Source: Naegleria gruberi
Taxonomy: Eukaryota
Direction: 5' to 3' (one strand)
Assembly: GCA_000004985.1 (NCBI GenBank)
Contig: GG738853.1
Length of the DNA: 64,000 nucleotides
This document shows, in pieces, positions 18,890 to 34,100 of this stretch; position 1 is the stretch's first letter, and every line of letters starts with the position of its first letter. The translations under genes were made by a program, and so were the position numbers. The notes beneath the pieces were generated by a model. That model was not told where the DNA came from, searched no databases, and was given only the letters and a program-made list of their open reading frames with translations.

Positions 18890-21800
18890 ATGCCCAAACA
18901 TTCCTTCACTGATTTGTTAATTGTTGCAATAAGTGATGATCATCATACTTCCGATGATGATAATGATGATGAACATGATTGTGATAAATTAATATTTAAA
19001 CATTTTCAACAAATTTCCTCTGCCAGAATTGAAAAAAACAAATCAATTTATAAGCATCTATTATTATTAGAAAACCGATTAGAAACCATTTCCACATTCA
19101 TTGAAAAATATCCATTTCCTGATAATGATTGTAAATTGGCAATTTTTAAAGCAGTGAGTAAAAATGGATTATTTCTGGAAGCAGCTTCTGCAAATTTGAG
19201 AAATGATGAGGAAATTGTAATGAGAGCTGTTAAAAAAAATGTAAATGCTATAGAGTTTGTGAGTGAAGAATTGAGAAGTGATAGAGAATTTGTGAAGAGG
19301 ATGATTGTTTCTGCAAGGGAAAGACTTGGTGGTACTTGTAGCTTTTTCAAACATCTCGACAAATTTCATGACGATGAGGAAATTGTAAAAATGATGGTGA
19401 AGAAATTTGCCAATTCTCTAGAATTTGTATCTACACGATTGAAGAATGAGAGGGAAATTATTTTGGAGGCTGTTAAAAGGAGAGGTTCATCTATTAGATT
19501 TGTACCAGAACATTTGATCGATAGAGAGGTGGTGTTAATATCTGTGAAAAGTTTTTTTCTGGCACTGAAATATGTACCTTCAGAGTTTTTAAATGATAGA
19601 GAAATTCTCTCTGCTGCTATTGACTTTTCAGGAATTTCAATGCAATATGCATCTGATGAGATTAAGAGTGATAGAGAGTTTGTTCTAGAAATGGTAAAAT
19701 TGAAGGGTGATTGTTATTGTTATATAGCAGGCCATCTCAAACTTGATAGGGAAATAGCCATAGAAGCTATAAAGACAAGTTCACAAAGTTTAAGATATGC
19801 ACCTGATCATTTCAAAGATGATGATGAAATTGTTTCAATAGCAGTTAGAAAAGATTTGTCCATTGTTTCTGCTGCTTCACAGAGATTTAGAGATAATGCT
19901 GATTTTATCTATGATATGGCTTCATCAGCATCTCGAGTGCTTGATTATATTACAAATTGTAATTATCCTTTGGCTAACGATAGAGAATTTAATCTAAGAT
20001 TGGTAGAAAAATTTGCCAATTACAGTGAGGATATTAAATATGCACTAAATCACGGAATAGAAAAGGAACTTATTTTGAAATTAATAGAGATAGATCCTGA
20101 TTGCTTTGTAAAGGTACAGAGTGAGGATATTAAGAATGATAGAAAATTATTATTCGATTTATTACCACATGGGGAGGAAATTCTTGACCTAATTCCTGAG
20201 AGTTTGAGTAATGACAGAGAACTCATTCTAAGAGCTGTGAAAATTTATCCTATCGCTTTAAAGATGGCTTCCGAGGAGCTGCGTGCTGATAGAGATATTG
20301 CTGTTCAGGCATTAATGTGTAGTGTTGATAACTTTGAGTTTTTATCAGAGGAATTAAGAAGTGATGGAAAGATAATAGAGGACATTCTTATTAGGGATGC
20401 CTATGTGTTGCAATTTGCGCCAGAATCATTTGGAAATGATAGAGAAATAATAACAACAGCTATCAGAAACTCATTCTCTAATACTTATTCTTTTATAGGG
20501 TATGAACTAAAGGAGGATAGGGAGCTTATTTTAGACTATGTAAAGAGATGTGGATCTATTGAAAATATTCTTCAAGATTTTCGAAACGATAGGGAAATTG
20601 TACTAACAGCTATTCAACAAAATGGAAGTGAATTTCAGTACGCCTCCAAATCTCTACGTAGTGATAGAGAGCTAGCATTAATTGCCGTCAGAAACTCATG
20701 TTCTTTAGAGCATGTACTTGTGGAAAAATTCGATAGAGAGCTTGTTTATGAAGCTTGCAAAATTGAATCAGAAAATCTTGAATATGCTTCAGAGTTTAGA
20801 GATGATGAAGATATTGTTATGGTGGCAGCTTGTTCTGATACTGGTTCAAAGTTTTTCCAGTACGCAAGTGATCGATTGAGAAATAATAGAGATTTTGTTT
20901 TGAAGGTTGCAAAGGTAAATGCTGGAATCATTCGATACATTTCAGAAGAGCTTTGTCAAGATAGGGAAATTATCATGACTGCTGTTTCAGCTGATGGAAA
21001 GTTATTAAAACATGCATCAGAAGAATTGAAAGGCGATAGACAAGTTGTGGAAAAGGCAATCAATTCATATTCTCGTTCCTTGAAATTTGCTTCTGAATAT
21101 TTAAGAAAAGATCAAGAGTTATTTGAAAAAGCTATATCAAAAGAATTAACCTATTCTCTCGCCACAAATAAGGAAATGATGAACAAAATTGATGTGAAAA
21201 TAATAGAGAAATGTGTGGTTGAACAAGGATATTCACTTAGTTATGTACCTGATTCTGTAAAAAGGAATAGAAGTCTTGTTATTAAGGCTGTAAATGCTGA
21301 CATGGATAATATTTTACATGTGCCACACGAGTTGATTGACAAGGAATTCATTATGGAATTGTCTCCAGCCAAGTTCAATATATTATTACTTCCACTCAAA
21401 TGGAGAAGAGATAGAGATATAGTATTGAAGGCATTGGAAAGTAATGGAAAAACAATAGTTTACCTTTCAGAGGAATTTAAAAATGAATTTAAAAACAACA
21501 GGGAAATATTACTGAAAGCAATGAAAACTGACAGCATTCCTTTCATTTATGCAAGTGAAGAATTACAAAATGATAGAGAATTTGTTTTGGAATCTGTTGC
21601 AACAAATGGAAAGGTATTAAATCACGTACCACTTGAATATCAGCTAGACAGAGAAATTGTCTTGACAGCTGTCAAAAATGATGGAAATTCTATTGAATTT
21701 GGAGCCACTTGCTTCATGAAAGATAGAGAAATTATGTGGAATGTAGTTCAAAACTTTTTATCAGAGAAAAATACATCCAATCCACTTATTTATGGCTCAT

Positions 21801-22087
21801 TTGAAATACGAAGTGATAGAGAACTAGTTCTGGAAGCTGTTCGACATGATTACAACGCCCTAGACTATGCTGCTCAAGAATTGTTATGTGATGAAGAATT
21901 TATGACCCAATGTGTGGAAATTAACATTAACAGTCTAATGTATGCCCATTATCAATTAAGATTCAACATTGATTTCCTTAAACGATTGAACAAGACAGAA
22001 ATTATTAGTGAAACAACTGATTTACATGACTGTATTGATATTGAAGGACTATTAGGATATTATCCAAAGTTAAAAGGTTTAATTTAA
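18890..22087 (+). CDS. Giant DUF4116-repeat protein of 1065 aa with about 33 tandem repeats of roughly 33 aa. It is intronless.
   Basis: The motif L(R/K)(N/S)DREIVLxAVKxNGxxLxYASEEL recurs from residue 100 to the C-terminus. Start context is aaaaaaaaATG. Confidence 0.8.
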   Translation: MPKHSFTDLLIVAISDDHHTSDDDNDDEHDCDKLIFKHFQQISSARIEKNKSIYKHLLLLENRLETISTFIEKYPFPDNDCKLAIFKAVSKNGLFLEAASANLRNDEEIVMRAVKKNVNAIEFVSEELRSDREFVKRMIVSARERLGGTCSFFKHLDKFHDDEEIVKMMVKKFANSLEFVSTRLKNEREIILEAVKRRGSSIRFVPEHLIDREVVLISVKSFFLALKYVPSEFLNDREILSAAIDFSGISMQYASDEIKSDREFVLEMVKLKGDCYCYIAGHLKLDREIAIEAIKTSSQSLRYAPDHFKDDDEIVSIAVRKDLSIVSAASQRFRDNADFIYDMASSASRVLDYITNCNYPLANDREFNLRLVEKFANYSEDIKYALNHGIEKELILKLIEIDPDCFVKVQSEDIKNDRKLLFDLLPHGEEILDLIPESLSNDRELILRAVKIYPIALKMASEELRADRDIAVQALMCSVDNFEFLSEELRSDGKIIEDILIRDAYVLQFAPESFGNDREIITTAIRNSFSNTYSFIGYELKEDRELILDYVKRCGSIENILQDFRNDREIVLTAIQQNGSEFQYASKSLRSDRELALIAVRNSCSLEHVLVEKFDRELVYEACKIESENLEYASEFRDDEDIVMVAACSDTGSKFFQYASDRLRNNRDFVLKVAKVNAGIIRYISEELCQDREIIMTAVSADGKLLKHASEELKGDRQVVEKAINSYSRSLKFASEYLRKDQELFEKAISKELTYSLATNKEMMNKIDVKIIEKCVVEQGYSLSYVPDSVKRNRSLVIKAVNADMDNILHVPHELIDKEFIMELSPAKFNILLLPLKWRRDRDIVLKALESNGKTIVYLSEEFKNEFKNNREILLKAMKTDSIPFIYASEELQNDREFVLESVATNGKVLNHVPLEYQLDREIVLTAVKNDGNSIEFGATCFMKDREIMWNVVQNFLSEKNTSNPLIYGSFEIRSDRELVLEAVRHDYNALDYAAQELLCDEEFMTQCVEININSLMYAHYQLRFNIDFLKRLNKTEIISETTDLHDCIDIEGLLGYYPKLKGLI

Positions 22088-22347: not shown

Positions 22348-23319
22348 ATGAAAGTGAATCTAATCTTTTCAATTGCAATTCTACTCTTGCTTGCAATCCT
22401 CTCAGTTCAAGCAAGTGACAACTATCAAACTAAACCTCCAGTTGTCGTAGTCGACAAGTATCACAAGCCAAGAGTTTGTAAGAGAAAATGCTTAAAGCAC
22501 AAGTGGATTAAGAAGTGTTTGAAACATAAACTCGTTGGTCAAAAGAAGGTCTGTGATCAATATGCAATTGTTGGCGCTGGCAAATGTCTCAAACATAAGA
22601 AATATTCCAAATGTGACAAGTACAGCAAGCCAACAAAGAAGTGTGTCTTACATGCATACAAGATTGTTGGATGCGCCAAGAAGAAGTACTGGAAAGTTTG
22701 CGATTCTTATGGAACTAAGAAGATTTGTGTTAAGAAGGGTTTCAAGAAATTCTGTGCCAAACACAAGATTATCAACAAGTGTTTCAAGAAGGGATTTAAG
22801 AAGGTCTGTAAGAAATTCAAGAAGGTTCCAATCAAGAAGTGTGAAAAGAAGAAGATTTGTGACAAGTACACTGTTGATTCCTACAATAAGAAGGTTGCCA
22901 AATGTAGATATGTTAAAAAGTGCAAGATTGTTTCATGGGCAAAGAAATGTGCCAAGTATAAGAAGGTTAAATATTGTAAGGAGAGAAAATCTGTTAAGAA
23001 GTGTTGTCTCATTAAGAAGAAATTCTTCTGTGCCAAGCATAAGATCTTCAAGTTCTGTAAGCACAAGAAGACTATTTCCAAATGTGTCAAATATCAAAAG
23101 AAGAAGTATTGTGCCAAGACAATTATTATTCCTCCAAGATGTATCAAGAAGAAGTATTATAAGAAGTGTTTGAAACGTTCAAAGGGAAAGAAGATTTGTA
23201 AGAAATTTAAGTTGGTTGGTGGAAAGAAGAAGTGTTGCAAGTCAATCAAGAAGAAGATTTGTATCAAGAGAAAGACATGTAAGAAGGTATCAAAGCCAAT
23301 CATCAAACCATCCTTGTAA
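22348..23319 (+). CDS. Secreted, extremely basic Lys/Cys-rich protein (323 aa, about 28% Lys and 13% Cys) with a C-x(5-9)-C periodicity. It is intronless.
   Basis: A signal peptide (MKVNLIFSIAILLLLAILSVQA) is followed by KKC/KHK repeats. It uses high-expression codons (aag, tgt, ttc). Start context is aaaaaaATG. Confidence 0.7.
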   Translation: MKVNLIFSIAILLLLAILSVQASDNYQTKPPVVVVDKYHKPRVCKRKCLKHKWIKKCLKHKLVGQKKVCDQYAIVGAGKCLKHKKYSKCDKYSKPTKKCVLHAYKIVGCAKKKYWKVCDSYGTKKICVKKGFKKFCAKHKIINKCFKKGFKKVCKKFKKVPIKKCEKKKICDKYTVDSYNKKVAKCRYVKKCKIVSWAKKCAKYKKVKYCKERKSVKKCCLIKKKFFCAKHKIFKFCKHKKTISKCVKYQKKKYCAKTIIIPPRCIKKKYYKKCLKRSKGKKICKKFKLVGGKKKCCKSIKKKICIKRKTCKKVSKPIIKPSL

Positions 23320-24999: not shown

Positions 25000-25109
25000 T
25001 TTTTTGCTTTTTGGCGAATTTTATTTTTGGAATTTGCAATCAAAATGCAAGTTGAGTGGAGGAGGAATGGAGAATTTCAATCATTCAAGTCATGAATGGT
25101 CAATTAGTG

Positions 25110-26825
25110 TTAATCTTTCAAAGATGTAATGAAGGATGCAAATTCTGTATTGGAATTTTTCAATCTTTCGAATAAATCGGTCATGTCAATCAGACAATGT
25201 TGTTGAATTTTGTGAAATAGATTGGCAGGTGGTTTTTCAGTTAGTTGGGAAGTTATTTCAGAATTACATTGTTCAATTTTTGGAATGTTGAGCTCTAGGG
25301 GACTATTAATTGATAAGTACACTTGTAAAATGTGATTTGCAATCTTTTTTCTGTTTTTGGTTGACCTTTTGTATCTTTGAATATCTTTCCAACATTGTAA
25401 ACTCTCAGTGCAATAACTTCTTCTTGCAAAATCCAACATTATTTTAAACATCTTCTTATTTTTCAAAACTTTTTCAATATTTGATTCATTACTTTCATTG
25501 GAATTCAATTTTGTGTAATCGAAATAAATTGATCGAATTACTGGTATTGTACAACACATAAATAATTCAAAATACATGTAACCCCAAATGAAAAACCCAT
25601 AGGGAACATAATAATCTACCAATTCAGATATTACCTCAATACTTCCACATATAATAAATAATATTGCTGAGAGTAATTGAACTATGGTTACAATAAATGA
25701 TTCCTTCTTAATTCCCCACGTATCCTTATCTGCCTTAACACACAATGCAAGAAATATCAATTCCAAAATGACATAGCCAACTACCTCCAATCCAATAGTT
25801 AGAACAGTATAGAAAGTCATTGAACATCCATGTCTGAATTCAAACATACTCGATTCAACCACAAATATTCGATTGTTAGAATTGGAATTGAGTGCTTCAT
25901 CAATTCCTCCAAGAATGGCCCAAATAATAAATCCAAATATAAATGAACATAAATAAACTGTTCCCATAAATTTTGTACTGACTAGAAAATTGTAAATTTG
26001 TAATTTTCTCATTTCCTTTTTTAGAGAAGCCATATCTTTAACATCAGCAGCTGACCATGTTGTTGAAATAGTGTCATTATCTAAATCATCAGTACTGGCA
26101 CTAGATGTTCTATTAGATGAACCTCCATCAGAATGATATGATGAATTTTCAACTGGTTGTTGATGCTCATTATTTCCTTTGATAGTATTGGAAACTTCTT
26201 GTAAATTGACTCCATGTACTTGAAATGAATCCATTTTTGTAATGACAAGTTCTGCTCCACTATTTGGTGGTAAGCTTTCAATAGATTCCAATGTTAATTG
26301 TTGATCCACTAATTCATGTTTCTTTGATTCTGAATCAATTGTATTCGATTCAAATAGTTTCGTCTTGGTTAAATTAATCTTGTACATGAAGAAAGCTCTC
26401 ATAAATCTAAATATTAATGGCAATGCAATCGCCTGTGGGAATGTAAAGAAGCCAATTGTCATCAAACCACATGGAAATGTCTTGCTCGACACTATTCTCC
26501 TCAATGTCAACACAACAACAAACCAAATCGAAGCTCCCAAAGTAAAAAACAAATAAACTGGATTCCTAGCACTAACATAACTACTATTCCTCTTCCATAT
26601 TACTCCCAACAATGAAAAAACCAGTGTTATCAAATAAACTATTAGAAACGTTAATGTAATTGCGAAGGAAAAATAAGTGTCTGGACAAAGTCCATAATTT
26701 AAAGTTGCATTTGATGATTCCCTGCTCCAGGGCGTATTCATAAGTGAAGGATGACATCTACTAGCGTTTTGATTGTTATTATTGATTAATTGAAGAACAG
26801 AGAAGAGATTGTTAAATGGCGACAT
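25110..26825 (-). CDS. Seven-transmembrane receptor fused to a C-terminal RGS domain, in the style of fungal class VI GPCRs (GprK) or plant AtRGS1.
   Basis: Seven hydrophobic helices are followed by an RGS box: FKIMLDFARRSYCTESLQCWKDIQRYK...ILQVYLSINSPLELNI...FHKIQQHCLIDMTDLFERLKNS. Confidence 0.75.
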   Translation of the reverse strand: MSPFNNLFSVLQLINNNNQNASRCHPSLMNTPWSRESSNATLNYGLCPDTYFSFAITLTFLIVYLITLVFSLLGVIWKRNSSYVSARNPVYLFFTLGASIWFVVVLTLRRIVSSKTFPCGLMTIGFFTFPQAIALPLIFRFMRAFFMYKINLTKTKLFESNTIDSESKKHELVDQQLTLESIESLPPNSGAELVITKMDSFQVHGVNLQEVSNTIKGNNEHQQPVENSSYHSDGGSSNRTSSASTDDLDNDTISTTWSAADVKDMASLKKEMRKLQIYNFLVSTKFMGTVYLCSFIFGFIIWAILGGIDEALNSNSNNRIFVVESSMFEFRHGCSMTFYTVLTIGLEVVGYVILELIFLALCVKADKDTWGIKKESFIVTIVQLLSAILFIICGSIEVISELVDYYVPYGFFIWGYMYFELFMCCTIPVIRSIYFDYTKLNSNESNESNIEKVLKNKKMFKIMLDFARRSYCTESLQCWKDIQRYKRSTKNRKKIANHILQVYLSINSPLELNIPKIEQCNSEITSQLTEKPPANLFHKIQQHCLIDMTDLFERLKNSNTEFASFITSLKD

Positions 26826-26959
26826 TTTTTTCTTGAATGAACTTGTGATGACAATTCCCTAAATGGATGACAGCTAGTCCAAATTAGTATATTTATGTCA
26901 ATTTGCCATTATAAAACATACGACAATGGTTGTAAAGATATTAATAATATATTAATATA

Positions 26960-27258
26960 TTTACAGTTAATTTTATTGAATTGAAATTGCTTCAACTCTT
27001 GCTTTATTTTCCTTCATCTGAAAGAGAAGCTTTAAGTATTTCCAAATCAAGCGAACCCTTTGGAAATCTGAAAGATTTAGAGAATTGGAAATGACCATTT
27101 TCTGTTTTCTTTTCAGCACTAATTGTAATCAAATCACCAAGTGAATTTTCCTTAATCTTTACCTCAATATCTTTCTTTTCAAACACATCTCTTGGAATGT
27201 TATTAATATCAAGTGAGAGCTCATCCATCTTGATTAATAGTTCTAATCACAAATGGAA
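26960..27258 (-). pseudogene. Degenerate duplicate of the sHSP gene at 29044..29337, carrying a roughly 45-nt internal deletion and a premature stop.
   Basis: About 95% nucleotide identity to 29000..29362 across the ATG and the first 60 codons. The copy then reads LDLEILKASLSDEGK-stop instead of LDLDKVKATLSDEGTLSVKIPR.... Homology resumes in the 3' flank. The 5' homology ends at tgtgattag, 25 nt upstream of the ATG. Confidence 0.6.
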
Positions 27259-27615
27259 ACGGACTTTTCGTCAACCTGTATGAAAGAAATGATCAAGACT
27301 TTCAGGGGATATGGTATTAAAGAGTAAGCGATTTACAGATAAAATCTCATTGGCGAAAATCGTAGTTATCATTCGCATTGTAAAAATGGCAAAAGAAGAA
27401 CAATGAACAGTAGAATGGGATTGACCAAATATGTATTCAATACCAAAGTTGTTGTTTACAATGAGATTGTTCTAAATAGTTTCAAATATGTTTAGTATAA
27501 TTAGCAAGGTACGACTAGATTACAACAGTTTGCCTTCCTTTTTAGAGAAACAAAATAATCATCGGTTGACATTTACTTATCAAAAAAACTGAGCAAACTA
27601 TTTACCATCGTTTTT

Positions 27616-28155
27616 GTGGTCGGCATTTCTTTGTGTTGCGCCACTCTACTTGCAGCCTGTTCCTTCTTCATTGCTTCAATAGTTGTCAATTCAACTGCAG
27701 ATAAATTACAGGAAGAATTCTTCGACATTGTCAATGTTAAGATTACAGCCAAAATTGTCAATGTTTTCAATAATTGTAAAACCTATAGAAGAGAGACAGA
27801 ATGTTATCCAATTGTTCGAATGGTTGATTTCTATCCATTCCAAATAGAAAATGTTACAAACCCAAACAGCAATAACACAGTTACGAGAGCAACAACCATG
27901 GCCACATCCAATCTTTCAAAACTAAAAGTGGATGAGATTATTTCTCTCTACATTGAAGTGAATACAACACCATCCACAAGTTCTAAAATTACATGGAAGA
28001 AGGTAATGTATGAAAAACCTGGAAATCCAAAATATGATGAATATCAATACTACAAGGCCGTTTTTAGCCCACTTCTTTATATCATGCTGGCTTTATTTTG
28101 TCTTACTTTTATTTTCTTGTTTCTTCTTTTTGGTCTTATGTTTGCAAGCAGATAA
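27616..28155 (+). CDS. Hypothetical small membrane protein ORF with N- and C-terminal hydrophobic segments. It has no ATG start (GTG only).
   Basis: ORF of 179 aa. The only in-frame ATG is internal. It overlaps an antisense ORF. Confidence 0.15.
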   Translation: MVGISLCCATLLAACSFFIASIVVNSTADKLQEEFFDIVNVKITAKIVNVFNNCKTYRRETECYPIVRMVDFYPFQIENVTNPNSNNTVTRATTMATSNLSKLKVDEIISLYIEVNTTPSTSSKITWKKVMYEKPGNPKYDEYQYYKAVFSPLLYIMLALFCLTFIFLFLLFGLMFASR

Positions 28156-28622
28156 GACCATTAAATTAGAGTGTATTCGGAATCAGGGTTGGTCTTTTTT
28201 GATGAATTAAAGTCTTGATCACAATAAAGGTGATTCATTATGCATAATTACTTATCCTATAATCTAGATAATCCGAGTGTCCTATTTCATTAATTATTCC
28301 TTCTATTTCTTCTGAAATAAATTTGACAATTCCGTTGTTCAATGTTTAGATGAACTTTAACCGCCAACAATTTAACAATATTTTAACTTAAAAAAAGTCA
28401 TTGTTTCATGTTCGATCCAGCTGAAGAGCTACGAAAAATCATCCAACGACTGAACCAAAGGCTAAAAAAAGGAAACTCCATGATGTAATTAATAACCATG
28501 AATTTTTAGAACAAATGAAAGAATAATTGGGATGCACTATTGGTGAGATAATCAACTATTCCAAAAATATTAATTCTACAAGGGAATAATTTAATGACCT
28601 TTTAATAGAACTTATTTTGCAT

Positions 28623-28922
28623 ATGAAAGACCCGTCGATTAAGACTAGATGGTCAGTCGAAGAATGTATTACACGCTTAAAATCCCAATACAAAACAGAG
28701 CTAAAGACAAGGGTTGATCAAAAGGAAAAGTATAGGGATAGGGTGGATAAATTTAAAAAAACAAATCTATTGTTGATAAAGCACTATTTCAATAAACTTG
28801 ACAGAAACAGAACATTCTATGATTTCACCATCATCCAATGGTCCAAAAGTTTACTGTCTTTCCGTATAAAGGGACAATTTGGTTACAGCAGTTGGCAAAT
28901 ATTGTTAAAAGGATATCAATGA
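28623..28922 (+). CDS. Short ORF with a Myb/SANT/MADF-like W-x-EE-x-L motif, possibly a transposon-derived remnant, lying between the two sHSP copies.
   Basis: Sequence MKDPSIKTRWSVEECITRLKSQYKTEL.... GC content here is higher than in the flanks. Confidence 0.2.
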   Translation: MKDPSIKTRWSVEECITRLKSQYKTELKTRVDQKEKYRDRVDKFKKTNLLLIKHYFNKLDRNRTFYDFTIIQWSKSLLSFRIKGQFGYSSWQILLKGYQ

Positions 28923-29043
28923 ACAAGATTGAAAGCAAGTGTTTCTACTAAGGTAGTTTCAGAAATTGTGGAAATTTACGAAACCGTTGAACCAATTGAC
29001 CCAAATACGAAATTGGTTGTACAGACAATAGTTTCAGTTAATG

Positions 29044-29337
29044 TCATTCAATTGAAATTTCTTTAACTCTTTCTTTAATTTCTGGTTCATCAATTCTTGG
29101 AATTTTCACACTCAAAGTTCCTTCATCTGAAAGAGTTGCTTTAACTTTATCCAAATCAAGCGAACCCTTTGGAAATCTGAAAGATTTAGAGAATTGGAAA
29201 TGACCATTTTCTGTTTTCTTTTCAGCACTAACTGTAATCAAATCACCAAGTGAATTTTCCTTAATCTTTACCTCAATATCTTTCTTTTCAAACACATCTC
29301 TTGGAATATTATTAATATCAAGTGAGAGCTCATCCAT
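29044..29337 (-). CDS. Small heat shock protein of the alpha-crystallin domain (HSP20) family.
   Basis: The ACD reads IPRDVFEKKDIEVKIKEN...GHFQFSKSFRFPKGSLDLDKVKATLSDEGTLSVKIPR and contains the G-x-L motif. Confidence 0.75.
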   Translation of the reverse strand: MDELSLDINNIPRDVFEKKDIEVKIKENSLGDLITVSAEKKTENGHFQFSKSFRFPKGSLDLDKVKATLSDEGTLSVKIPRIDEPEIKERVKEISIE

Positions 29338-29950
29338 CTTGATTAATAGTTCTAATCACAGATGAAATTGGACCTCTACGTCTCAATGGCTTATCAGTAG
29401 ATGTTTCTCTCATTGAAGAACTTTCACTTGATGATGAAGATGAAGAGCTGATACTCTTTTGAGCATTATTATTCATAGAATTGAAAGAATTGGTATAATC
29501 TTCCCACCATTGATGATCATCAAAGAGGGAAGGCAACATGTTTGATCTTCTCATCATGTTATTCATTCTTCTTCTCATGGAATTGAAAGATTCATCAAAG
29601 TTAGAAAAAGGTGATGATTGAAACCATTGATTATCAAACCAATCATTCTGATATCCTTGGTTCAATCCTTTCATAACATTTTTCCAAATATTCTTCTTTG
29701 ATTTCTTCCTTGATAACTTTTTAGATTTCTCTTCTGTTTTAATATTTAATTGAGGATTTGATGAGGAAGAGTATTTACCAGATTGATCATGATCTGGTAA
29801 TGGTGTTGTTGATTGTCCCTCCTTCTCAACACGTACCTCTTCCTCTGCTGTTATAAGGGAAATATCCAAACAATAAACAATGAAGAGTACTGCAAGTAGA
29901 CTTGAAATGATTACTGTTGTTTTGAATTGTTGTTGATTAATCTTCATCAT
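29330..29950 (-). CDS. ORF for a signal peptide plus an S-rich, W/F-rich sHSP-type N-terminal region. It ends at 29330, which is +1 out of frame with and overlaps the ACD start codon at 29337. It is probably the 5' part of the same sHSP gene.
   Basis: Sequence MMKINQQQFKTTVIISSLLAVLFIVYC...WFDNQWFQSSPFSNFDESFNSM...HQWWEDY.... It carries the canonical A-rich start context (aaaatcataATGatg), whereas the ACD Met lacks one. Confidence 0.5.
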   Translation of the reverse strand: MMKINQQQFKTTVIISSLLAVLFIVYCLDISLITAEEEVRVEKEGQSTTPLPDHDQSGKYSSSSNPQLNIKTEEKSKKLSRKKSKKNIWKNVMKGLNQGYQNDWFDNQWFQSSPFSNFDESFNSMRRRMNNMMRRSNMLPSLFDDHQWWEDYTNSFNSMNNNAQKSISSSSSSSSESSSMRETSTDKPLRRRGPISSVIRTINQDG

Positions 29951-30008: not shown

Positions 30009-30490
30009 ACTTCGGAATAAAACACGTATTATTGTTGTCTATTTTTAATACTTAACATTATGATTGGTAGGAGTAGAAAATCTCGAGTCTGGAACTTTGT
30101 TCGACAACTAAAAATAAACATTTTATTTAATTCATTTAAAAGGAAATTCTAAATTTCCCTTCCCTCCTTCTAAATTTGCTTGTTTTGTTGGATTCATTGT
30201 ATGTAGCAAGTGGTTGAGAAGGAGAGATTTGAGTGGATGAAGTTGTTGGTTTGGTTGAGAGAAGGATTTTGGTTTTCTACCCCTCTTCTTCTTGGTTGCT
30301 GTTAATCAATCCATTTGTTATTTAAATTCCGGTCTGACTTTTCCGGTCTGGTTTTTACTTCTAATTTCGGAATTAAAAATAGTCTATTTTTAATTTTTAA
30401 AATTTTATTTTTGGATGAGAGACCGGAAAATCTGGTCATTGACTCTGGCTTTTCTACTCCTACCTTATGATTATTTCTTATTCCGAAGTG
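30009..30490. mobile_element. MITE/foldback-like element with terminal and subterminal inverted repeats and nested internal inverted repeats.
   Basis: Left-end acttcggaataa (30009-30020) and ggtaggagtagaaaa (30066-30080) pair with ttttctactcctacc (30450-30464) and ttattccgaagt (30478-30489). Internally, ttccggtctg x2 pairs with gagaccggaaaatctgg. Confidence 0.35.
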
Positions 30491-30961: not shown

Positions 30962-31851
30962 TTATTTTTCTTCTGCAAAAAGCTTTTTCAATTCTTCTTT
31001 GATAGCAGCGTGTTCTATTTTATCTTGTATTTCTAGTTTCTCTCGTCTTTTAGTGATATAGGAAGATACTTTAATAGATAATGCCTCTATTTCACCGAAT
31101 TGGTTTTCTAACAATTCCATCTTTTTCTTATTTTCTGTAATAATCTTTTGATAAAATTGCATACAATACTCATAAAAACCTTCTTCTAGCTCAACTTTTC
31201 TTTTTAAAGCATCTCTTTCTTCTCTATCTGAAAGAATATCTGTTAATTCTTGTAAAAGTAATGAAGTTTCTGACATAGTATAATCGTTTTGTTCATTATC
31301 TGTCTTGATAGCTTTAACAGCTTTCTTTGATAATTCCTTCACATTAATTGCATCTACTTTTCTTTTGGTTGATGGAGATCTATTTACCAAAGTTTCGTCA
31401 CTGGTTGGAATTATGGTAGTGGTACTTGGTTTGTTAAGAAGAACTGTTGTTGGCGGGCTGCAATCAATAATAAATGACTCATTAACTTTAGAACTTTTCA
31501 TAGGAGTTCTTTCTATAATTGAAACTTGCTTATCATCATCACTTCTCCACAAATAATTACTTAAATTGCACATTCCTGAATCAATAAAGCATTCTACAGC
31601 ATCATTAATATCGCTGGAATACAAATTTCATTTGATGACTCCTTCTTATTCATTGAATCTTTTAATAAAGTTACTAGTGTTTCCGATTTAGAAAAGTGTA
31701 TTTGATTATTGATACAATTAACAATACACTTTCTAATCGATGAAGTTGTTGTTGTTGTTGTTGATGTTGTTGGGGTTGATGTTGTTGTTATTGATGAAGT
31801 TGTGTTTTGATGGTCCTGTTTTTGTTTTTTGCGTTTGGGTTGTTTAAGCAT
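30962..31851 (-). CDS. Hypothetical coiled-coil protein. A 5' ORF (31594..31851, with a T/S-rich N-terminus and an A-rich ATG context) overlaps the main ORF (30962..31624) in another frame. This means a frameshift or unusual junction near 31600-31625.
   Basis: The second ORF has no ATG (TTG only), and a stop lies just upstream in its frame. No canonical intron of plausible size joins the frames. Confidence 0.45.
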
Positions 31852-31861
31852 TTTTTTGACC

Positions 31862-31898
31862 CTGCAATAAATTTTTTATTTTTACTGCAGGGTCAAAA
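31862..31898. repeat. Imperfect palindrome gaccctgca...tgcagggtc with a CTGCAG core, abutting the A-rich Kozak of the gene start at 31851.
   Basis: Read as gaccctgcaataaattttttatttttactgcagggtc followed by aaaaaaaATG on the minus strand. Confidence 0.45.
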
Positions 31899-32008
31899 AA
31901 TACTTTGTTAGGTGAAACAGAAGTTGAAGTTGATTAATGTTATTGTTGAACTTGTTGATGTAAGTGATAATGATGGTATAGAAGTGATAGATTAAATGTT
32001 ATACTTTA

Positions 32009-33121
32009 TTAAAATGTTTCTTTATAGGTTCCATCATACCACAACTTCAAAGAAATCATTCCGAATGAAACTGTAACCAGTTGAGTGATTGAATTATGAG
32101 AAACACTTAATCTATAAACCATGTTTCGAACATGATCCCATCCTTCCATGAATTCCAATTGTCTATTGCAATGTTCATTAAACTCATTCAACTCCTCTCC
32201 TAAAAATGAATAATCATTGTCTTCGATAACTGGAAAACTGAAATCATTTGATGATGTACTACTTGTTGTTGATGTAGAATCGTTGAATATTGTTATTCCT
32301 TCCCCATCTTCAAATTCCGATTCATAATTATTATTATCTAAACTATATTGATTCAAAGTCCATCGTCCATTTCCGAATGTTGGTAAATATGGAAATTCAA
32401 ACACATATCTTGAAACATTTCCTTTTGTAAAACAGCCAATAGAATCGTATCCAAGAACCTTTCTACTTCTAATTGTACAATGTTCTCCATACATATCAAA
32501 GTAACTGGTAAATACATTTCTGGTACACTTTGAAACTGGCATACAGAATACAACTTTCTTGAATCCATTTGCTACTCTACCAATCATACGATCACAAATA
32601 TCCTTTTCCAATCTTTTCATTTCCAAAAAATGTAAGAAATCTTGTAGTTCATATTTGTTAAAGGTGAAAATCTTATCATCATCTGTATAACCGGAATAAA
32701 TTGATTCATGGTTAACATTATGTTGATTATTTTCAAGTGGAGAAGGAAGATATAATATTTTAGGTTCAATAGAAGTGAATGGATTATTGCCCTTTTTGAT
32801 TTGTTGCTTGTATATGAGAGATTTTTTAAAGATTGGAAAGTCATTTTCATCTCTAGGAAATTCTTCTTCTTCCTTCACTATGATGTTGTTGTTGTTGTTA
32901 TTGGTTAGCATTTGTTGTCTAGCCTTTTGTGTTGGCCATCTAACCATAGAAAGCTCCTCTCTATGCTTCTTGAATAAAGAGCGAAGTTTGAAAGAAGATG
33001 TACCAAGTACTTTAGCAGCTTGCTCTTGGCTTAAGTGAAGAACGGACTTCAGTTCATCCAATGTTAATTGCTTCTTCTTTGGTGAAGTTCCATCCAGTGG
33101 ATTGTAGTGAATGAAGGACAT
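32009..33121 (-). CDS. RWP-RK domain transcription factor. The track ORF extends to 33259 from a GTG; the first ATG is at 33121.
   Basis: RWP-RK box: LTLDELKSVLHLSQEQAAKVLGTSSFKLRSLFKKHREELSMVRWPTQKARQ. Confidence 0.6.
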   Translation of the reverse strand: MSFIHYNPLDGTSPKKKQLTLDELKSVLHLSQEQAAKVLGTSSFKLRSLFKKHREELSMVRWPTQKARQQMLTNNNNNNIIVKEEEEFPRDENDFPIFKKSLIYKQQIKKGNNPFTSIEPKILYLPSPLENNQHNVNHESIYSGYTDDDKIFTFNKYELQDFLHFLEMKRLEKDICDRMIGRVANGFKKVVFCMPVSKCTRNVFTSYFDMYGEHCTIRSRKVLGYDSIGCFTKGNVSRYVFEFPYLPTFGNGRWTLNQYSLDNNNYESEFEDGEGITIFNDSTSTTSSTSSNDFSFPVIEDNDYSFLGEELNEFNEHCNRQLEFMEGWDHVRNMVYRLSVSHNSITQLVTVSFGMISLKLWYDGTYKETF

Positions 33122-33504
33122 TGGTGGGAGATGTTGTGTGCTGTTGTTAATAGGTACGGTGTTGTTTTGAACATTTTTTTTACCATGTGTTTTTTGTACG
33201 GATGTATTTATAGAACAATTTTGACAACGCCAGCGAAAGTAAACACAGAGAAGCCACACATTTTTAACACGTTGTTTACCTTGTTATCTTCCTCTGAATT
33301 AATAAACATACCAATTGTAATTAATTCATTATTTATTTTGGTTCCCCAATTACCTCGTACAAGAAAGTATTATGATTGTGATAGATCCATTGGAGTGTAG
33401 ATAAATAAGGACTGTGAAACCCATAAGAGTGTATTAACACTTACATTTTTTTGTCAAATACACAAATTGTAGAGATTAATATAGCATGATAAGAACCCCT
33501 CGAG

Positions 33505-34100
33505 TTGTTGCCTGCCTTTGGCAAATGGGAGGTAATTACTCAGGAAATTGCAACACAAGCTACAGAGAATTTCAAGGATGATCCTGACGTTCTTTTTAAA
33601 GTCATTCGAACCGATATTGCTCAACAAGTTGTCTCAAGAAATGGTCTTTTATTGCAATATTTCTCCCCACAAATCAGAGCAAACGTCGATGTTGTGAAAA
33701 TGGCCATTCAACAGAATCCACCCTCTCTTCAAAAGAGTTTAGTCCAGAACGAGGAAATAGTAACAAAAGCAATTCAATATGATGGATCAGTGCTACAATT
33801 CGCACAAACACAATTTAAATCAAGACAATTAGTATTGGAAGCTGTCAAACAACATAATCTTGCTCTTCAATTCACACAGGATCCTTCTTTGGTGATGGAT
33901 AGAGAAATTATTGTGGAAGCTTTGAATAATGGTCTGCCTTGTAGATCCAACGTGGAGGAGAGACAAGGAAATTGTGTTGATTGCCTTGAGTAATGATGTT
34001 AGAGCATACAGATTAATAGATTCTTCGTTGAGAAGCGATGAAGATATTCTAAAGGTTTACTCCAACTCTACCAGTTGTTGGACTATTACATTCGATGAAA
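33505..34100 (+). pseudogene. DUF4116-repeat gene relic. It has no ATG, about 5 repeats, and then a frame change near 33940. A further perfect repeat (RDKEIVLIALSNDVRAYRLIDSSLRSDEDILKVY) continues in another frame to 34105.
   Basis: Stops lie immediately upstream of the TTG-start ORF. The repeat consensus continues in frame +2 after ...EALNNG. Confidence 0.45.

What the first reader, a model, noticed from the sequence alone, without database searches (positions are those of the whole stretch)
26960..29950. Tandem sHSP duplication with one degenerate copy and a possible signal-peptide-bearing sHSP in two frames
Copy B (29044..29337) is an intact alpha-crystallin ORF. Copy A (26960..27258) shares about 95% identity over the ATG and 60 codons, then has a roughly 45-nt deletion and a stop, with homology resuming 3'. 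Immediately 5' of copy B, an ORF with the canonical A-rich start encodes a signal peptide plus a W/F-rich sHSP-like N-terminal region. That ORF ends at 29330, +1 frame relative to and overlapping the ACD Met at 29337. The ACD alignment suggests beta-strands belong upstream of that Met, so one ER-targeted or secreted sHSP gene is plausible. It would need a frameshift, an assembly indel, or an unusual splice. The duplication boundary (tgtgattag, 25 nt 5' of the ATG) excludes the N-terminal ORF from copy A.
Basis: partly seen in the sequence, partly recalled or inferred. Interest (0 to 1): 0.5.

Follow-up and report, generated by a model that had tools for sequence, protein, structure and literature searches.

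The report
Frameshifted secretory sHSP gene plus fragment
This stretch of the Naegleria gruberi genome holds a small heat-shock protein gene that carries a secretion signal but is split in two by a 5-base deletion, next to an older broken partial copy carrying the same deletion; an intact twin gene lies elsewhere in the same assembly, so the locus is most likely a recently inactivated gene or allele and not an unusual coding mechanism.

Summary
The window is N. gruberi NEG-M: its RGS gene is 100% identical to a reference protein over 441 aa.

Copy B consists of ORF1 (29950..29330, minus strand; signal peptide plus W/F-rich region) and an alpha-crystallin ORF (29337..29044). Together they are one ancestral single-exon gene.
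- The N. lovaniensis gene at the syntenic position is an uninterrupted 310-aa protein.
- A 302-aa N. gruberi protein, XP_002668391, sits on a separate 8.1-kb scaffold. It matches ORF1 and the ACD ORF at 98% in two frames.
- It reads ...QDGKNELSLD where the window reads ...QDG*/MDELSLD. The window therefore lacks 5 nt. This is not an intron.

Copy A (about 27264..26912) is a partial copy with no N-terminal region and a 38-nt deletion. The A/B alignment is a mosaic. A central 211 nt is 99.1% identical and contains the deleted junction, while the flanks are only 67-84% identical (p = 9e-10). That pattern indicates an old fragment plus a recent gene-conversion tract.

Best reading: a recently frameshifted pseudogene or null allele of a secretory sHSP family found in Naegleria, Willaertia and unnamed environmental sequences. 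The deletion may have been copied in from the neighbouring fragment. An assembly error or +1 recoding is unlikely but not excluded. Interest is modest.

The parts
29330..29950 (-). Copy B, 5' part (ORF1, 206 aa). It encodes the signal-like N-terminus (MMKINQQQFK + TTVIISSLLAVLFIVYCL + DISLITA|EEE), the conserved acidic EEEVRVEKEG motif, the W/F-rich N-terminal region and the first ACD strand (SSVIRTINQ). It ends at a TGA created by the frameshift.
   Evidence: ORF listing. tblastn of XP_002668391 residues 1-205 gives 202/206 identity in frame -1, 29950..29333. Family HMM E = 1.7e-72. Hydropathy and alignment of N-termini. AlphaFold strand 195-203.
29330..29337 (-). Frameshift junction. The window reads caa gat gga t gag where the intact twin encodes Q D G K N E. 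Five nt (inferred aaRaa) are missing, leaving a single t at 29332 between the G205 and E208 codons. The ORF1 stop (29332..29330) overlaps the ACD ATG (29337..29335).
   Evidence: Sequence. Two-frame tblastn match of P0001. P0001, P0002, P0003 and P0005 align without length difference across this point; P0004 has one extra residue.
29044..29337 (-). Copy B, 3' part (97-aa ORF). It holds the alpha-crystallin domain from strand beta3 onwards plus the C-terminal I-S-I-E tail. The frame is one base further on than ORF1.
   Evidence: Pfam HSP20 E = 7.9e-10, profile positions 18-101 of 102. 94/96 identity to P0001 residues 207-302. Family HMM E = 1.4e-55.
26912..27264 (-). Copy A, a partial degenerate duplicate. 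It has no N-terminal region, the same 5-nt-deleted junction, a 38-nt frameshifting deletion after codon 72, a stop at 27004..27006, and a 16-nt insertion 3' of the former stop.
   Evidence: blastn. MAFFT alignment A2. Column-by-column counts. HMM E = 3e-41 for the ACD part only.
29150..29360 (-). Putative gene-conversion tract in copy B. The partner in copy A is 27041..27251. Identity is 209/211, it is flanked by 67-84% identity, and it contains the frameshift junction.
   Evidence: Segment identities and Fisher exact test, p = 9.2e-10, central tract against 3' flank.
27041..27251 (-). Putative gene-conversion tract in copy A (partner of 29150..29360).

Best explanation
Copy B sits at the position syntenic with a secretory-pathway small heat-shock protein gene that is intact in N. 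lovaniensis. It belongs to a family found in Naegleria, Willaertia and unnamed environmental sequences.

The intact protein has four parts:
- an N-terminal signal peptide, with a predicted cleavage site after ...ITA / ...VKA;
- a W/F-rich N-terminal region;
- an alpha-crystallin beta-sandwich;
- a C-terminal I-x-I tail.

By analogy with other sHSPs it would assemble into oligomers and hold unfolding proteins without ATP. It would do this inside the secretory pathway or outside the cell, and it has no H/KDEL retention signal.

In this window the gene has lost 5 nt between the first and second ACD strands. Translation from the normal start therefore stops at G205. The product would be a signal peptide plus N-terminal region with no functional ACD. 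The remaining 97 codons are stranded in another frame. This copy is therefore a recent pseudogene or a null allele.

The working copy in strain NEG-M is the 98%-identical XP_002668391 on a separate 8.1-kb scaffold. That scaffold is either the other haplotype of this locus or a very young paralog.

Copy A is an older partial duplicate. A recent gene-conversion event homogenised 211 nt between A and B, and that tract includes the deletion. The lesion may therefore have arisen in the dead fragment and been copied into the live gene, or the reverse.

Shown here: the gene structure, the deletion, the mosaic identity, the synteny and the family. Inferred: the signal-peptide function, the chaperone role, the lack of expression, the direction of conversion, and whether the twin is an allele or a paralog.
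For: The window is NEG-M:
- RGS ORF residues 131-571 are 100% identical to a reference protein on a 695,587-bp scaffold.

Synteny:
- Genes on both sides of copy B match the neighbours of the intact 933-nt single-exon N. lovaniensis gene.

The twin and the deletion:
- XP_002668391 matches the window in two frames, at 202/206 and 94/96 identity.
- One nt in the window replaces the two codons K206-N207.
- P0001, P0002, P0003 and P0005 have the same length across the junction (P0004 has one extra residue) and all are uninterrupted there, so the contiguous state is ancestral.

The lesion is real:
- Copy A carries the identical junction.
- Unique ORF1 sequence begins about 36 nt from the junction. 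Reads that span B's junction therefore cannot be confused with A.

Gene conversion:
- Identity is 99.1% over 211 nt against 67-84% in the flanks, p = 9e-10.

ACD identity and fold:
- Pfam HSP20 match.
- The AlphaFold model of the twin (mean pLDDT 58; about 70 over the ACD) matches solved ACDs: C. elegans Hsp17 and Sip1, human HSPB1 and HSPB5, Foldseek E about 1e-4.

Signal-like N-termini in all members:
- Mean Kyte-Doolittle hydropathy is 2.8-3.5 over the best 15-residue window.
- The five Naegleria and environmental sequences have small residues at -3/-1 before a conserved EEE(I/V)xVEKEG motif.

Annotation:
- No protein identical to ORF1, the ACD ORF or the copy A ORF is in the 15-billion-sequence collection. 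The search with the fused protein returned no model from this locus.
Against: - Both ORFs of copy B are still completely open. They differ from the twin at only 4 substitutions and one codon indel besides the junction, so there is no decay beyond the frameshift itself. That fits a very recent lesion, but it also fits a gene that is still used.
- The deletion creates an in-frame ATG for the ACD ORF. A +1 slip at GGA-UGA-G would also restore the full protein minus two residues.
- I could not read the DNA of the 8.1-kb scaffold or any sequencing reads or transcripts. The allele-or-paralog question, the direction of conversion and the expression status are all untested.
- A search meant to detect flanking genes on the small scaffold returned nothing and is uninformative.
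Confidence: 0.68

Rival explanations
1. Assembly or consensus error. The genome really has the 5 nt at copy B, the gene is intact in vivo, and the 8.1-kb scaffold with XP_002668391 is the same locus (or its allele) assembled correctly.
For: - An almost identical intact version exists as a small unplaced scaffold in the same assembly. That is typical of regions the assembler could not merge.
- A near-identical repeat (copy A) with the deleted junction lies 2.1 kb away and could in principle contaminate a consensus.
Against: - A 5-nt loss in non-homopolymer sequence (ggaAAGAAtgag) is not a typical read error.
- Unique ORF1 sequence starts about 36 nt from the junction, so reads are placed unambiguously.
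- The twin also differs from copy B at five other places, including a codon indel. It is therefore a distinct sequence and not the same reads.
- The identical junction in copy A shows that the deleted form exists in real DNA.
Confidence: 0.12
2. The locus still makes useful products as a split gene. One product would be a secreted N-terminal fragment (ORF1). The other would be a cytosolic ACD-only 97-aa protein started at the ATG created by the deletion.
For: - Both ORFs are intact.
- The deletion places an ATG in frame with the ACD.
Against: - The 97-aa ORF lacks the first ACD strand and the whole N-terminal region.
- It sits behind a 206-codon ORF containing many ATGs, so a scanning ribosome would not reach it.
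- No promoter evidence and no canonical heat-shock element was found within 750 nt upstream of the ORF1 start (the window-wide scan was at chance level).
- Copy A has the same ATG and is clearly dead.
- Openness of the ORFs is expected anyway at about 1-2% divergence from the twin.
Confidence: 0.07
3. Programmed +1 ribosomal frameshifting at the ORF1 stop (GGA-UGA-G, skipping the U). This would produce a full-length secretory sHSP that lacks only K206-N207.
For: - Skipping one base at the stop gives ...TINQDG-ELSLDINN..., exactly the family frame.
- It resembles the UCC-UGA-U shift site of antizyme (own knowledge).
- Both halves are otherwise undamaged.
Against: - No stable RNA structure lies downstream (z = +0.44 against shuffles).
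- The site is not conserved. All complete relatives are contiguous at this point.
- The same junction sits in the dead fragment A.
- The junction lies inside a conversion tract, which explains its presence without any function.
Confidence: 0.03

Closest known systems
N. gruberi predicted protein XP_002668391 / NAEGRDRAFT_76695 (UniProt D2W5K4), 302 aa, uncharacterised
   Same: 98% identical to ORF1 and to the ACD ORF. It has the same signal-like N-terminus, the same W/F-rich region, the same ACD and the same ISIE tail.
   Different: - It is contiguous and has K206-N207 where the window has a 5-nt gap.
- It lacks one Glu (E74).
- It has K-L for N-V, S for R180 and I for V241.
- It lies on a separate 8,148-bp scaffold.
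N. lovaniensis C9374_004885 (310 aa), the gene at the syntenic position; also N. fowleri FDP41_006955
   Same: - Same neighbourhood on both sides in N. lovaniensis (RMI1-like, WD40 and a 592-aa gene).
- Same architecture, with 43% identity over 96% of the fused window protein.
   Different: - It is a single uninterrupted exon.
- An AMP deaminase gene follows it in both N. lovaniensis and N. fowleri. That gene is absent from the window, where an RGS gene and fragment A sit instead.
- There is no partial duplicate nearby.
Plant endoplasmic-reticulum sHSPs (for example wheat TaHSP23.9 and rice OsHSP23.2)
   Same: An N-terminal signal peptide is followed by an N-terminal region and an alpha-crystallin domain, and ER localisation was shown with a GFP fusion (PMC7069362). 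This is the best-known case of an sHSP routed into the secretory pathway.
   Different: - No specific sequence relationship beyond the ACD was found here, so the signal peptide may well have been acquired independently (inference).
- The Naegleria/Willaertia proteins are longer (about 270-325 aa in Naegleria).
- They have a conserved acidic EEE(I/V)xVEKEG motif after the predicted cleavage site.
- They end in I-x-I-E with no K/HDEL-type retention signal. Their localisation has not been tested.
Gene inactivation by conversion from a neighbouring pseudogene (human CYP21A2/CYP21A1P, GBA1/GBAP1; own knowledge)
   Same: A dead tandem partial copy and the parent gene share a short near-identical tract that carries the disabling lesion.
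   Different: The direction of transfer is not established here. The event is seen in a single genome and not as recurrent alleles.

Membership tests
Small heat-shock proteins (Pfam HSP20 / alpha-crystallin domain) | Significant match to the ACD profile above the curated cut-off | tested here: met
   - Copy B ACD ORF: 39.2 bits against a cut-off of 20.8, E = 7.9e-10.
- The twin P0001: 35.1 bits.
- Copy A: only 16.5 bits, below the cut-off.
Small heat-shock proteins (Pfam HSP20 / alpha-crystallin domain) | Beta-sandwich ACD fold | tested here: met
   - AlphaFold model of the intact twin: strands at 195-286, pLDDT about 70 in this part and 58 overall.
- Foldseek top hits are solved ACDs (7pe3, 4ydz, 6gjh, 2wj7), E about 1e-4, probability 1.00.
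- The model was built from the twin and not from the broken window copy.
Small heat-shock proteins (Pfam HSP20 / alpha-crystallin domain) | C-terminal I-x-I/V motif used for oligomer contacts | tested here: met
   The tails ISIE, IAIE, INVE, ISVE and VKIE sit at the extreme C-terminus of the window ORF and of the complete relatives.
Small heat-shock proteins (Pfam HSP20 / alpha-crystallin domain) | One polypeptide containing the N-terminal region plus a complete ACD (strands beta2-beta9) | tested here: not met
   In the window the first strand (SSVIRTINQ) is in ORF1 and the rest is in another frame after a 5-nt deletion. The locus is therefore filed as a disrupted member.
Small heat-shock proteins (Pfam HSP20 / alpha-crystallin domain) | ATP-independent holdase activity; stress induction | not testable with these tools
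   No canonical heat-shock element was found within 750 nt upstream. The window-wide count was at chance level. No expression data were available.
Secretory-pathway (signal-peptide-bearing) sHSPs | Cleavable N-terminal signal peptide: basic n-region, hydrophobic core, small residues at -3/-1 | tested here: inconclusive
   - ORF1 and all relatives have a 15-residue window with mean hydropathy 2.8-3.5, preceded by K/R.
- The five Naegleria and environmental sequences follow it with VKA, LAA or ITA before the conserved EEE motif.
- No dedicated signal-peptide predictor was available, so a signal anchor cannot be excluded.
Secretory-pathway (signal-peptide-bearing) sHSPs | ER retention signal (K/HDEL-like), as in plant ER sHSPs | tested here: not met
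   All members end in ...I-x-I-E or similar and none ends in a K/HDEL-type tetrapeptide. Onward transport or secretion is inferred from this.
Processed or unprocessed pseudogene, or null allele | A disabling lesion relative to an intact close homolog and to orthologs | tested here: met
   - Copy B has a 5-nt deletion relative to P0001 and to all orthologs.
- Copy A has in addition a 38-nt deletion and lacks the 5' two-thirds of the gene.
Processed or unprocessed pseudogene, or null allele | Absence of a functional product or of expression | not testable with these tools
   There is no access to reads, ESTs or proteomes. No gene model for this locus appears in the protein collection.
Programmed +1 ribosomal frameshift sites (antizyme-like) | Conserved shift site with stimulatory elements, where the shifted product is the conserved protein | tested here: not met
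   - The shift site is not conserved, because the complete relatives are contiguous here.
- No stable downstream structure was found.
- Only the geometry fits (GGA-UGA-G).

The most novel reading that the evidence does not exclude
The frameshifted copy is not dead. Ribosomes would shift +1 at GGA-UGA-G, as at the antizyme stop codon, and make a full-length secretory sHSP lacking two residues. That would be the first recoding event described in a heterolobosean.

A milder novel reading is that a dead gene fragment inactivated its neighbour by gene conversion in a free-living amoeba whose sexual and recombination biology is still debated.
Probability: 0.03. Interest if true: 0.75.

Novelty: new member of a known kind. 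Interest (0 to 1): 0.3.

Why it matters
For genome annotation, copy B should be annotated as a frameshifted pseudogene or null allele of NAEGRDRAFT_76695-like sHSP. Copy A should be annotated as a gene fragment. The current reference model of the neighbouring RGS gene appears to splice across that fragment.

Two biological points are of modest interest.
- Naegleria, Willaertia and several unnamed environmental organisms share an uncharacterised family of sHSPs. These have a signal peptide, a conserved acidic motif after the predicted cleavage site and no ER-retention signal. They are candidates for ATP-independent chaperones in the secretory pathway, in the medium or perhaps in the cyst wall. 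Signal-peptide sHSPs are otherwise best documented in the plant ER.
- The sharp 211-nt block of 99% identity inside an otherwise 67-84% identical pair is a clean local signature of gene conversion in N. gruberi, and it carries the disabling lesion.

Tried and rejected
Intron hypotheses:
- The only GT..AG pairs that could bridge the frames are an 8-nt one (GTGATTAG, wrong phase) and a 28-nt one. The 28-nt one would delete the invariant R-G-P-x-S-S motif.
- The N. lovaniensis gene is a single exon, and the twin is collinear with the window across the junction apart from the 5 missing nt. Both candidates are rejected.

A decayed N-terminal region upstream of copy A:
- The minus-strand ORF 27770..27573 starts with a signal-like MKTLTILAVILTL. 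However, the family HMM finds nothing there. Rejected.

Heat-shock elements:
- No nGAAnnTTCnnGAAn match with at most 1 mismatch lies within 750 nt upstream of the ORF1 start.
- The window-wide count of 35 is at or below the chance expectation of 42.

A stimulatory RNA structure after the UGA:
- None was found.

Haplotig test:
- A chimeric protein query made from the flanking ORFs (30962..33993) returned no hits at all, not even from the main scaffold. It is uninformative.
- Exact look-ups of XP_002668391 and the paralog XP_002670334 in the contig index found no DNA. The 8.1-kb scaffold could not be read.

Remnants of the AMP deaminase or Dpy-30-like genes that flank the orthologs:
- None is present in the window.

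Literature:
- Nothing was found on these accessions or on secretory sHSPs in Naegleria.
- The Hsp20 reported in N. fowleri proteomics is a different 19.8-kDa protein.
Full report
**What is there**

The window is AT-rich (31.5% GC) and comes from Naegleria gruberi NEG-M. The 571-aa RGS ORF at 25110..26825 is 100% identical over residues 131-571 to a reference protein on a 695,587-bp scaffold.

Three pieces lie on the minus strand.
- ORF1, 29950..29330, 206 aa.
- An ORF at 29337..29044, 97 aa. It hits Pfam HSP20 at E = 7.9e-10, covering profile positions 18-101.
- An ORF at 27228..27004, 74 aa, which is a truncated version of the 97-aa ORF.

The ORF1 stop (TGA, 29332..29330) overlaps the ATG of the ACD ORF (29337..29335). 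The ACD frame lies one base further on.

**Check of the duplication**

- blastn aligns A 27009..27264 with B 29118..29373 at 245/256 identity (E = 9e-119). It also aligns A 26957..27006 with B 29028..29077 at 84%.
- The offset between the two blocks shows that 38 nt are missing from A, not about 45. This shifts the frame and gives a stop after ...SDEGK.
- Homology continues beyond the former stop codon to about A 26912 / B 29000, with a 16-nt insertion in A.
- On the 5' side, similarity fades about 36 nt upstream of the ATG.
- A family HMM run against all six frames of the window finds only ORF1, ACD-B and ACD-A. Copy A therefore has no N-terminal region.
- N. lovaniensis has no such fragment next to its gene.

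**One gene, not two**

I searched with ORF1 fused to the ACD ORF. The search returned these proteins:
- an N. gruberi protein of 302 aa, XP_002668391 / NAEGRDRAFT_76695, at 97% identity and 100% coverage;
- an N. gruberi paralog of 325 aa;
- N. lovaniensis C9374_004885, 310 aa;
- N. fowleri FDP41_006955, 272 aa;
- a 300-aa protein from a metagenome.

All are single polypeptides that start with a signal-like N-terminus; four continue through a complete ACD to an IxI-type tail, while the N. fowleri model loses the frame partway through the ACD (see "Noticed in passing").

The N. lovaniensis gene is one uninterrupted 933-nt exon. Its neighbours on both sides (an RMI1-like gene, a WD40 gene and a 592-aa gene) have their counterparts around copy B in the window. 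Copy B therefore sits at the position syntenic with this intact gene.

**Nature of the break**

tblastn of XP_002668391 against the window gives two matches:
- residues 1-205 in frame -1 (29950..29333, 202/206 identical);
- residues 207-302 in frame -2 (29334..29047, 94/96 identical).

Between the G205 codon (gga) and the E208 codon (gag), the window has a single t (29332). The twin has two codons there, K and N. Five nucleotides, inferred to be aaRaa, are missing.

In the protein alignment P0001, P0002, P0003 and P0005 have the same length here, P0004 has one extra residue, and all are uninterrupted. The contiguous form is therefore ancestral and the window form is derived.

An intron is excluded. 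The candidate GT..AG pairs are 8 nt (wrong phase) or 28 nt (it would remove the invariant R-G-P-x-S-S segment), and the relatives have no gap.

The AlphaFold model of the twin has a mean pLDDT of 58, and about 70 over the ACD. It places a strand at residues 195-203 (SSVIRTINQ), upstream of the window's Met. In a Willaertia homolog the Pfam ACD match begins at the equivalent stretch.

The modelled ACD matches solved sHSP domains: C. elegans Hsp17 and Sip1, and human HSPB1 and HSPB5.

**Is the deletion real?**

Several points argue that it is.
- It is a 5-nt loss in non-repetitive sequence.
- Copy A carries exactly the same junction.
- Sequence unique to B begins about 36 nt from the junction. 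Reads crossing it cannot be misplaced from A.
- The twin differs from B at five further positions, including a codon indel. It is a distinct sequence.

I could not inspect reads, so an assembly error stays at about 0.12.

**A mosaic that points to gene conversion**

Column-by-column counts of the A/B alignment give these values.
- The central tract, B 29360..29150 against A 27251..27041, is 209/211 identical (99.1%). Every synonymous position but one is identical.
- The 15 nt on the 5' side are 10/15 identical.
- The 3' side is 24/29, 46/55 and 20/29 identical, and it also carries the two indels.
- Fisher's exact test for the central tract against the 3' flank gives p = 9e-10.

Selection cannot explain this pattern in a fragment that is obviously dead. 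The simplest account is that A is an old partial duplicate and that a recent conversion event homogenised about 211 nt between A and B.

The 5-nt deletion lies inside this tract. The lesion was therefore transferred between the copies in one direction or the other. If it arose in the dead fragment and was copied into B, this is a natural case of a pseudogene inactivating its neighbour. The direction can only be settled with the DNA of the twin, which I could not obtain.

**What the intact gene probably does**

This section is inference. All family members have a basic start and a strongly hydrophobic core (mean Kyte-Doolittle hydropathy 2.8-3.5 over 15 residues). In the five Naegleria and environmental sequences, small residues at -3/-1 (VKA, LAA, ITA) come directly before a conserved acidic motif, EEE(I/V)xVEKEG. 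This is a classical signal-peptide layout, but no dedicated predictor was available.

After the signal come a W/F-rich region with the conserved blocks MRRRMNNM and LPSLFDDHQWWED, then the ACD, then an I-x-I-E C-terminus. None of the proteins ends in K/HDEL.

A profile search of 1.84 billion representative proteins found 25 hits at E ≤ 0.001. Those inspected with this architecture include two proteins of Willaertia magna and several unnamed environmental sequences, some of which carry the EEEITVEKE motif.

The most likely function is an ATP-independent holdase that works in the lumen of the secretory pathway or after secretion. The best-documented analogues are the plant ER sHSPs, which also have a signal peptide and were localised experimentally (PMC7069362).

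I found no literature on the Naegleria family. The Hsp20 reported in N. fowleri proteomics is a different 19.8-kDa protein.

**What the window copy does**

Translation from the normal start would end at G205. The product would be a signal peptide plus N-terminal region with only the first ACD strand, which is very probably useless.

The 97-aa ORF has an ATG only because of the deletion. It lacks the first strand and the N-terminal region, and it lies behind a long ORF.

No heat-shock element was found upstream. No protein identical to these ORFs is in the protein collection, and the fused-protein search returned no model from this locus.

A +1 slip at GGA-UGA-G would restore the protein minus two residues. 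However, there is no downstream structure (z = +0.44) and no conservation of the site, and the same junction occurs in the dead fragment.

I therefore rate the readings as follows: pseudogene or null allele 0.68, assembly error 0.12, split-gene function 0.07, recoding 0.03.

**Verdict**

The case is ordinary in kind. It is a recent pseudogene or null allele plus a gene fragment in a lineage-specific, uncharacterised branch of a well-known family. Two modestly interesting side results are the conversion tract that carries the lesion and the family of signal-peptide sHSPs shared by Naegleria and Willaertia.

**Noticed in passing**

- The reference model of the RGS gene starts with an exon at 27728..27606. 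It splices with GT..AG across about 1.17 kb, including copy A, into the RGS ORF. Yet the 571-aa ORF is open throughout and its full length is matched by paralogs, so that model is probably wrong.
- The N. fowleri ortholog is itself frameshifted at GAAAAAGAAAAAC, with the rest of the ACD open in another frame.
- The AMP deaminase gene that follows the sHSP in N. lovaniensis and N. fowleri is absent from the window.

Noticed in passing
window 25110..27728 (minus strand): The reference gene model of the RGS-domain protein (481 aa, on the 695,587-bp scaffold) begins with an exon at 27728..27606 (MSKNSS...TKTM|GTAAAT). It splices over about 1.17 kb, which encloses sHSP fragment A, into ...CCACAG|GCGATT near 26433. 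The uninterrupted 571-aa ORF 25110..26825 is open throughout, and paralogs cover its full length. The annotated first exon and intron therefore look like a prediction artefact.
   Followed up: partly
L003 3001..3960 (N. fowleri GCA_008403515.1, VFQX01000054.1): The N. fowleri ortholog FDP41_006955 (272 aa) loses the ACD frame at GGAGAAAAAGAAAAACTGAC. The rest of the domain (TDNGHYEFSKSYRFPKGSIDMDKVKAIF...RSIAIE*) is open in another frame. This is either a homopolymer error of that assembly or a parallel inactivation.
   Followed up: partly
window 25000..29050, compared with L001 6934..10900 and L003 3820..6819: In N. lovaniensis and N. fowleri an AMP deaminase gene lies directly downstream of the sHSP gene. 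In the N. gruberi window it is absent with no remnant. An RGS gene, fragment A and about 1.8 kb of sequence containing ORFs without homologs (27616..28155 plus strand, 28617..28922 plus strand) lie there instead. A rearrangement breakpoint therefore coincides with the duplicated fragment.
   Followed up: partly
window 29845..29816 (minus strand), and homologs P0002-P0005, P0017, P0021, P0029, P0035: A strongly conserved acidic motif, EEE(I/V)xVEKEG, follows the predicted signal-peptide cleavage site in Naegleria and in several unnamed environmental relatives. It is absent from the two Willaertia proteins. Its role is unknown; it could be a propeptide or a sorting signal.
   Followed up: no
window 18890..22087 (plus strand) and 33505..33993 (plus strand): A 1065-aa ORF is made almost entirely of DUF4116 repeats (22 matched stretches, E = 9e-193). 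A second ORF of 162 aa has 3 repeats of the same kind, about 11 kb away.
   Followed up: partly
window 22348..23319 (plus strand): A 323-aa ORF has a signal-like N-terminus and an extremely Lys/Cys-rich repetitive body (KKC..K..K..C motifs). It has no Pfam match.
   Followed up: no
window 30330..30440: About 420 nt upstream of the ORF1 start there is an AT-rich 25-nt palindrome (aattaaaaatagtctatttttaatt, 30371..30395). It is flanked by inverted copies of ttttccggtct. It has no obvious function.
   Followed up: no
window 32009..33259 (minus strand): A 416-aa ORF has a sub-threshold RWP-RK domain match (28.4 bits against a cut-off of 29.3) and is a possible transcription factor. A chimeric search that included it returned no database proteins at all, although the window is from an annotated genome.
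   Followed up: no
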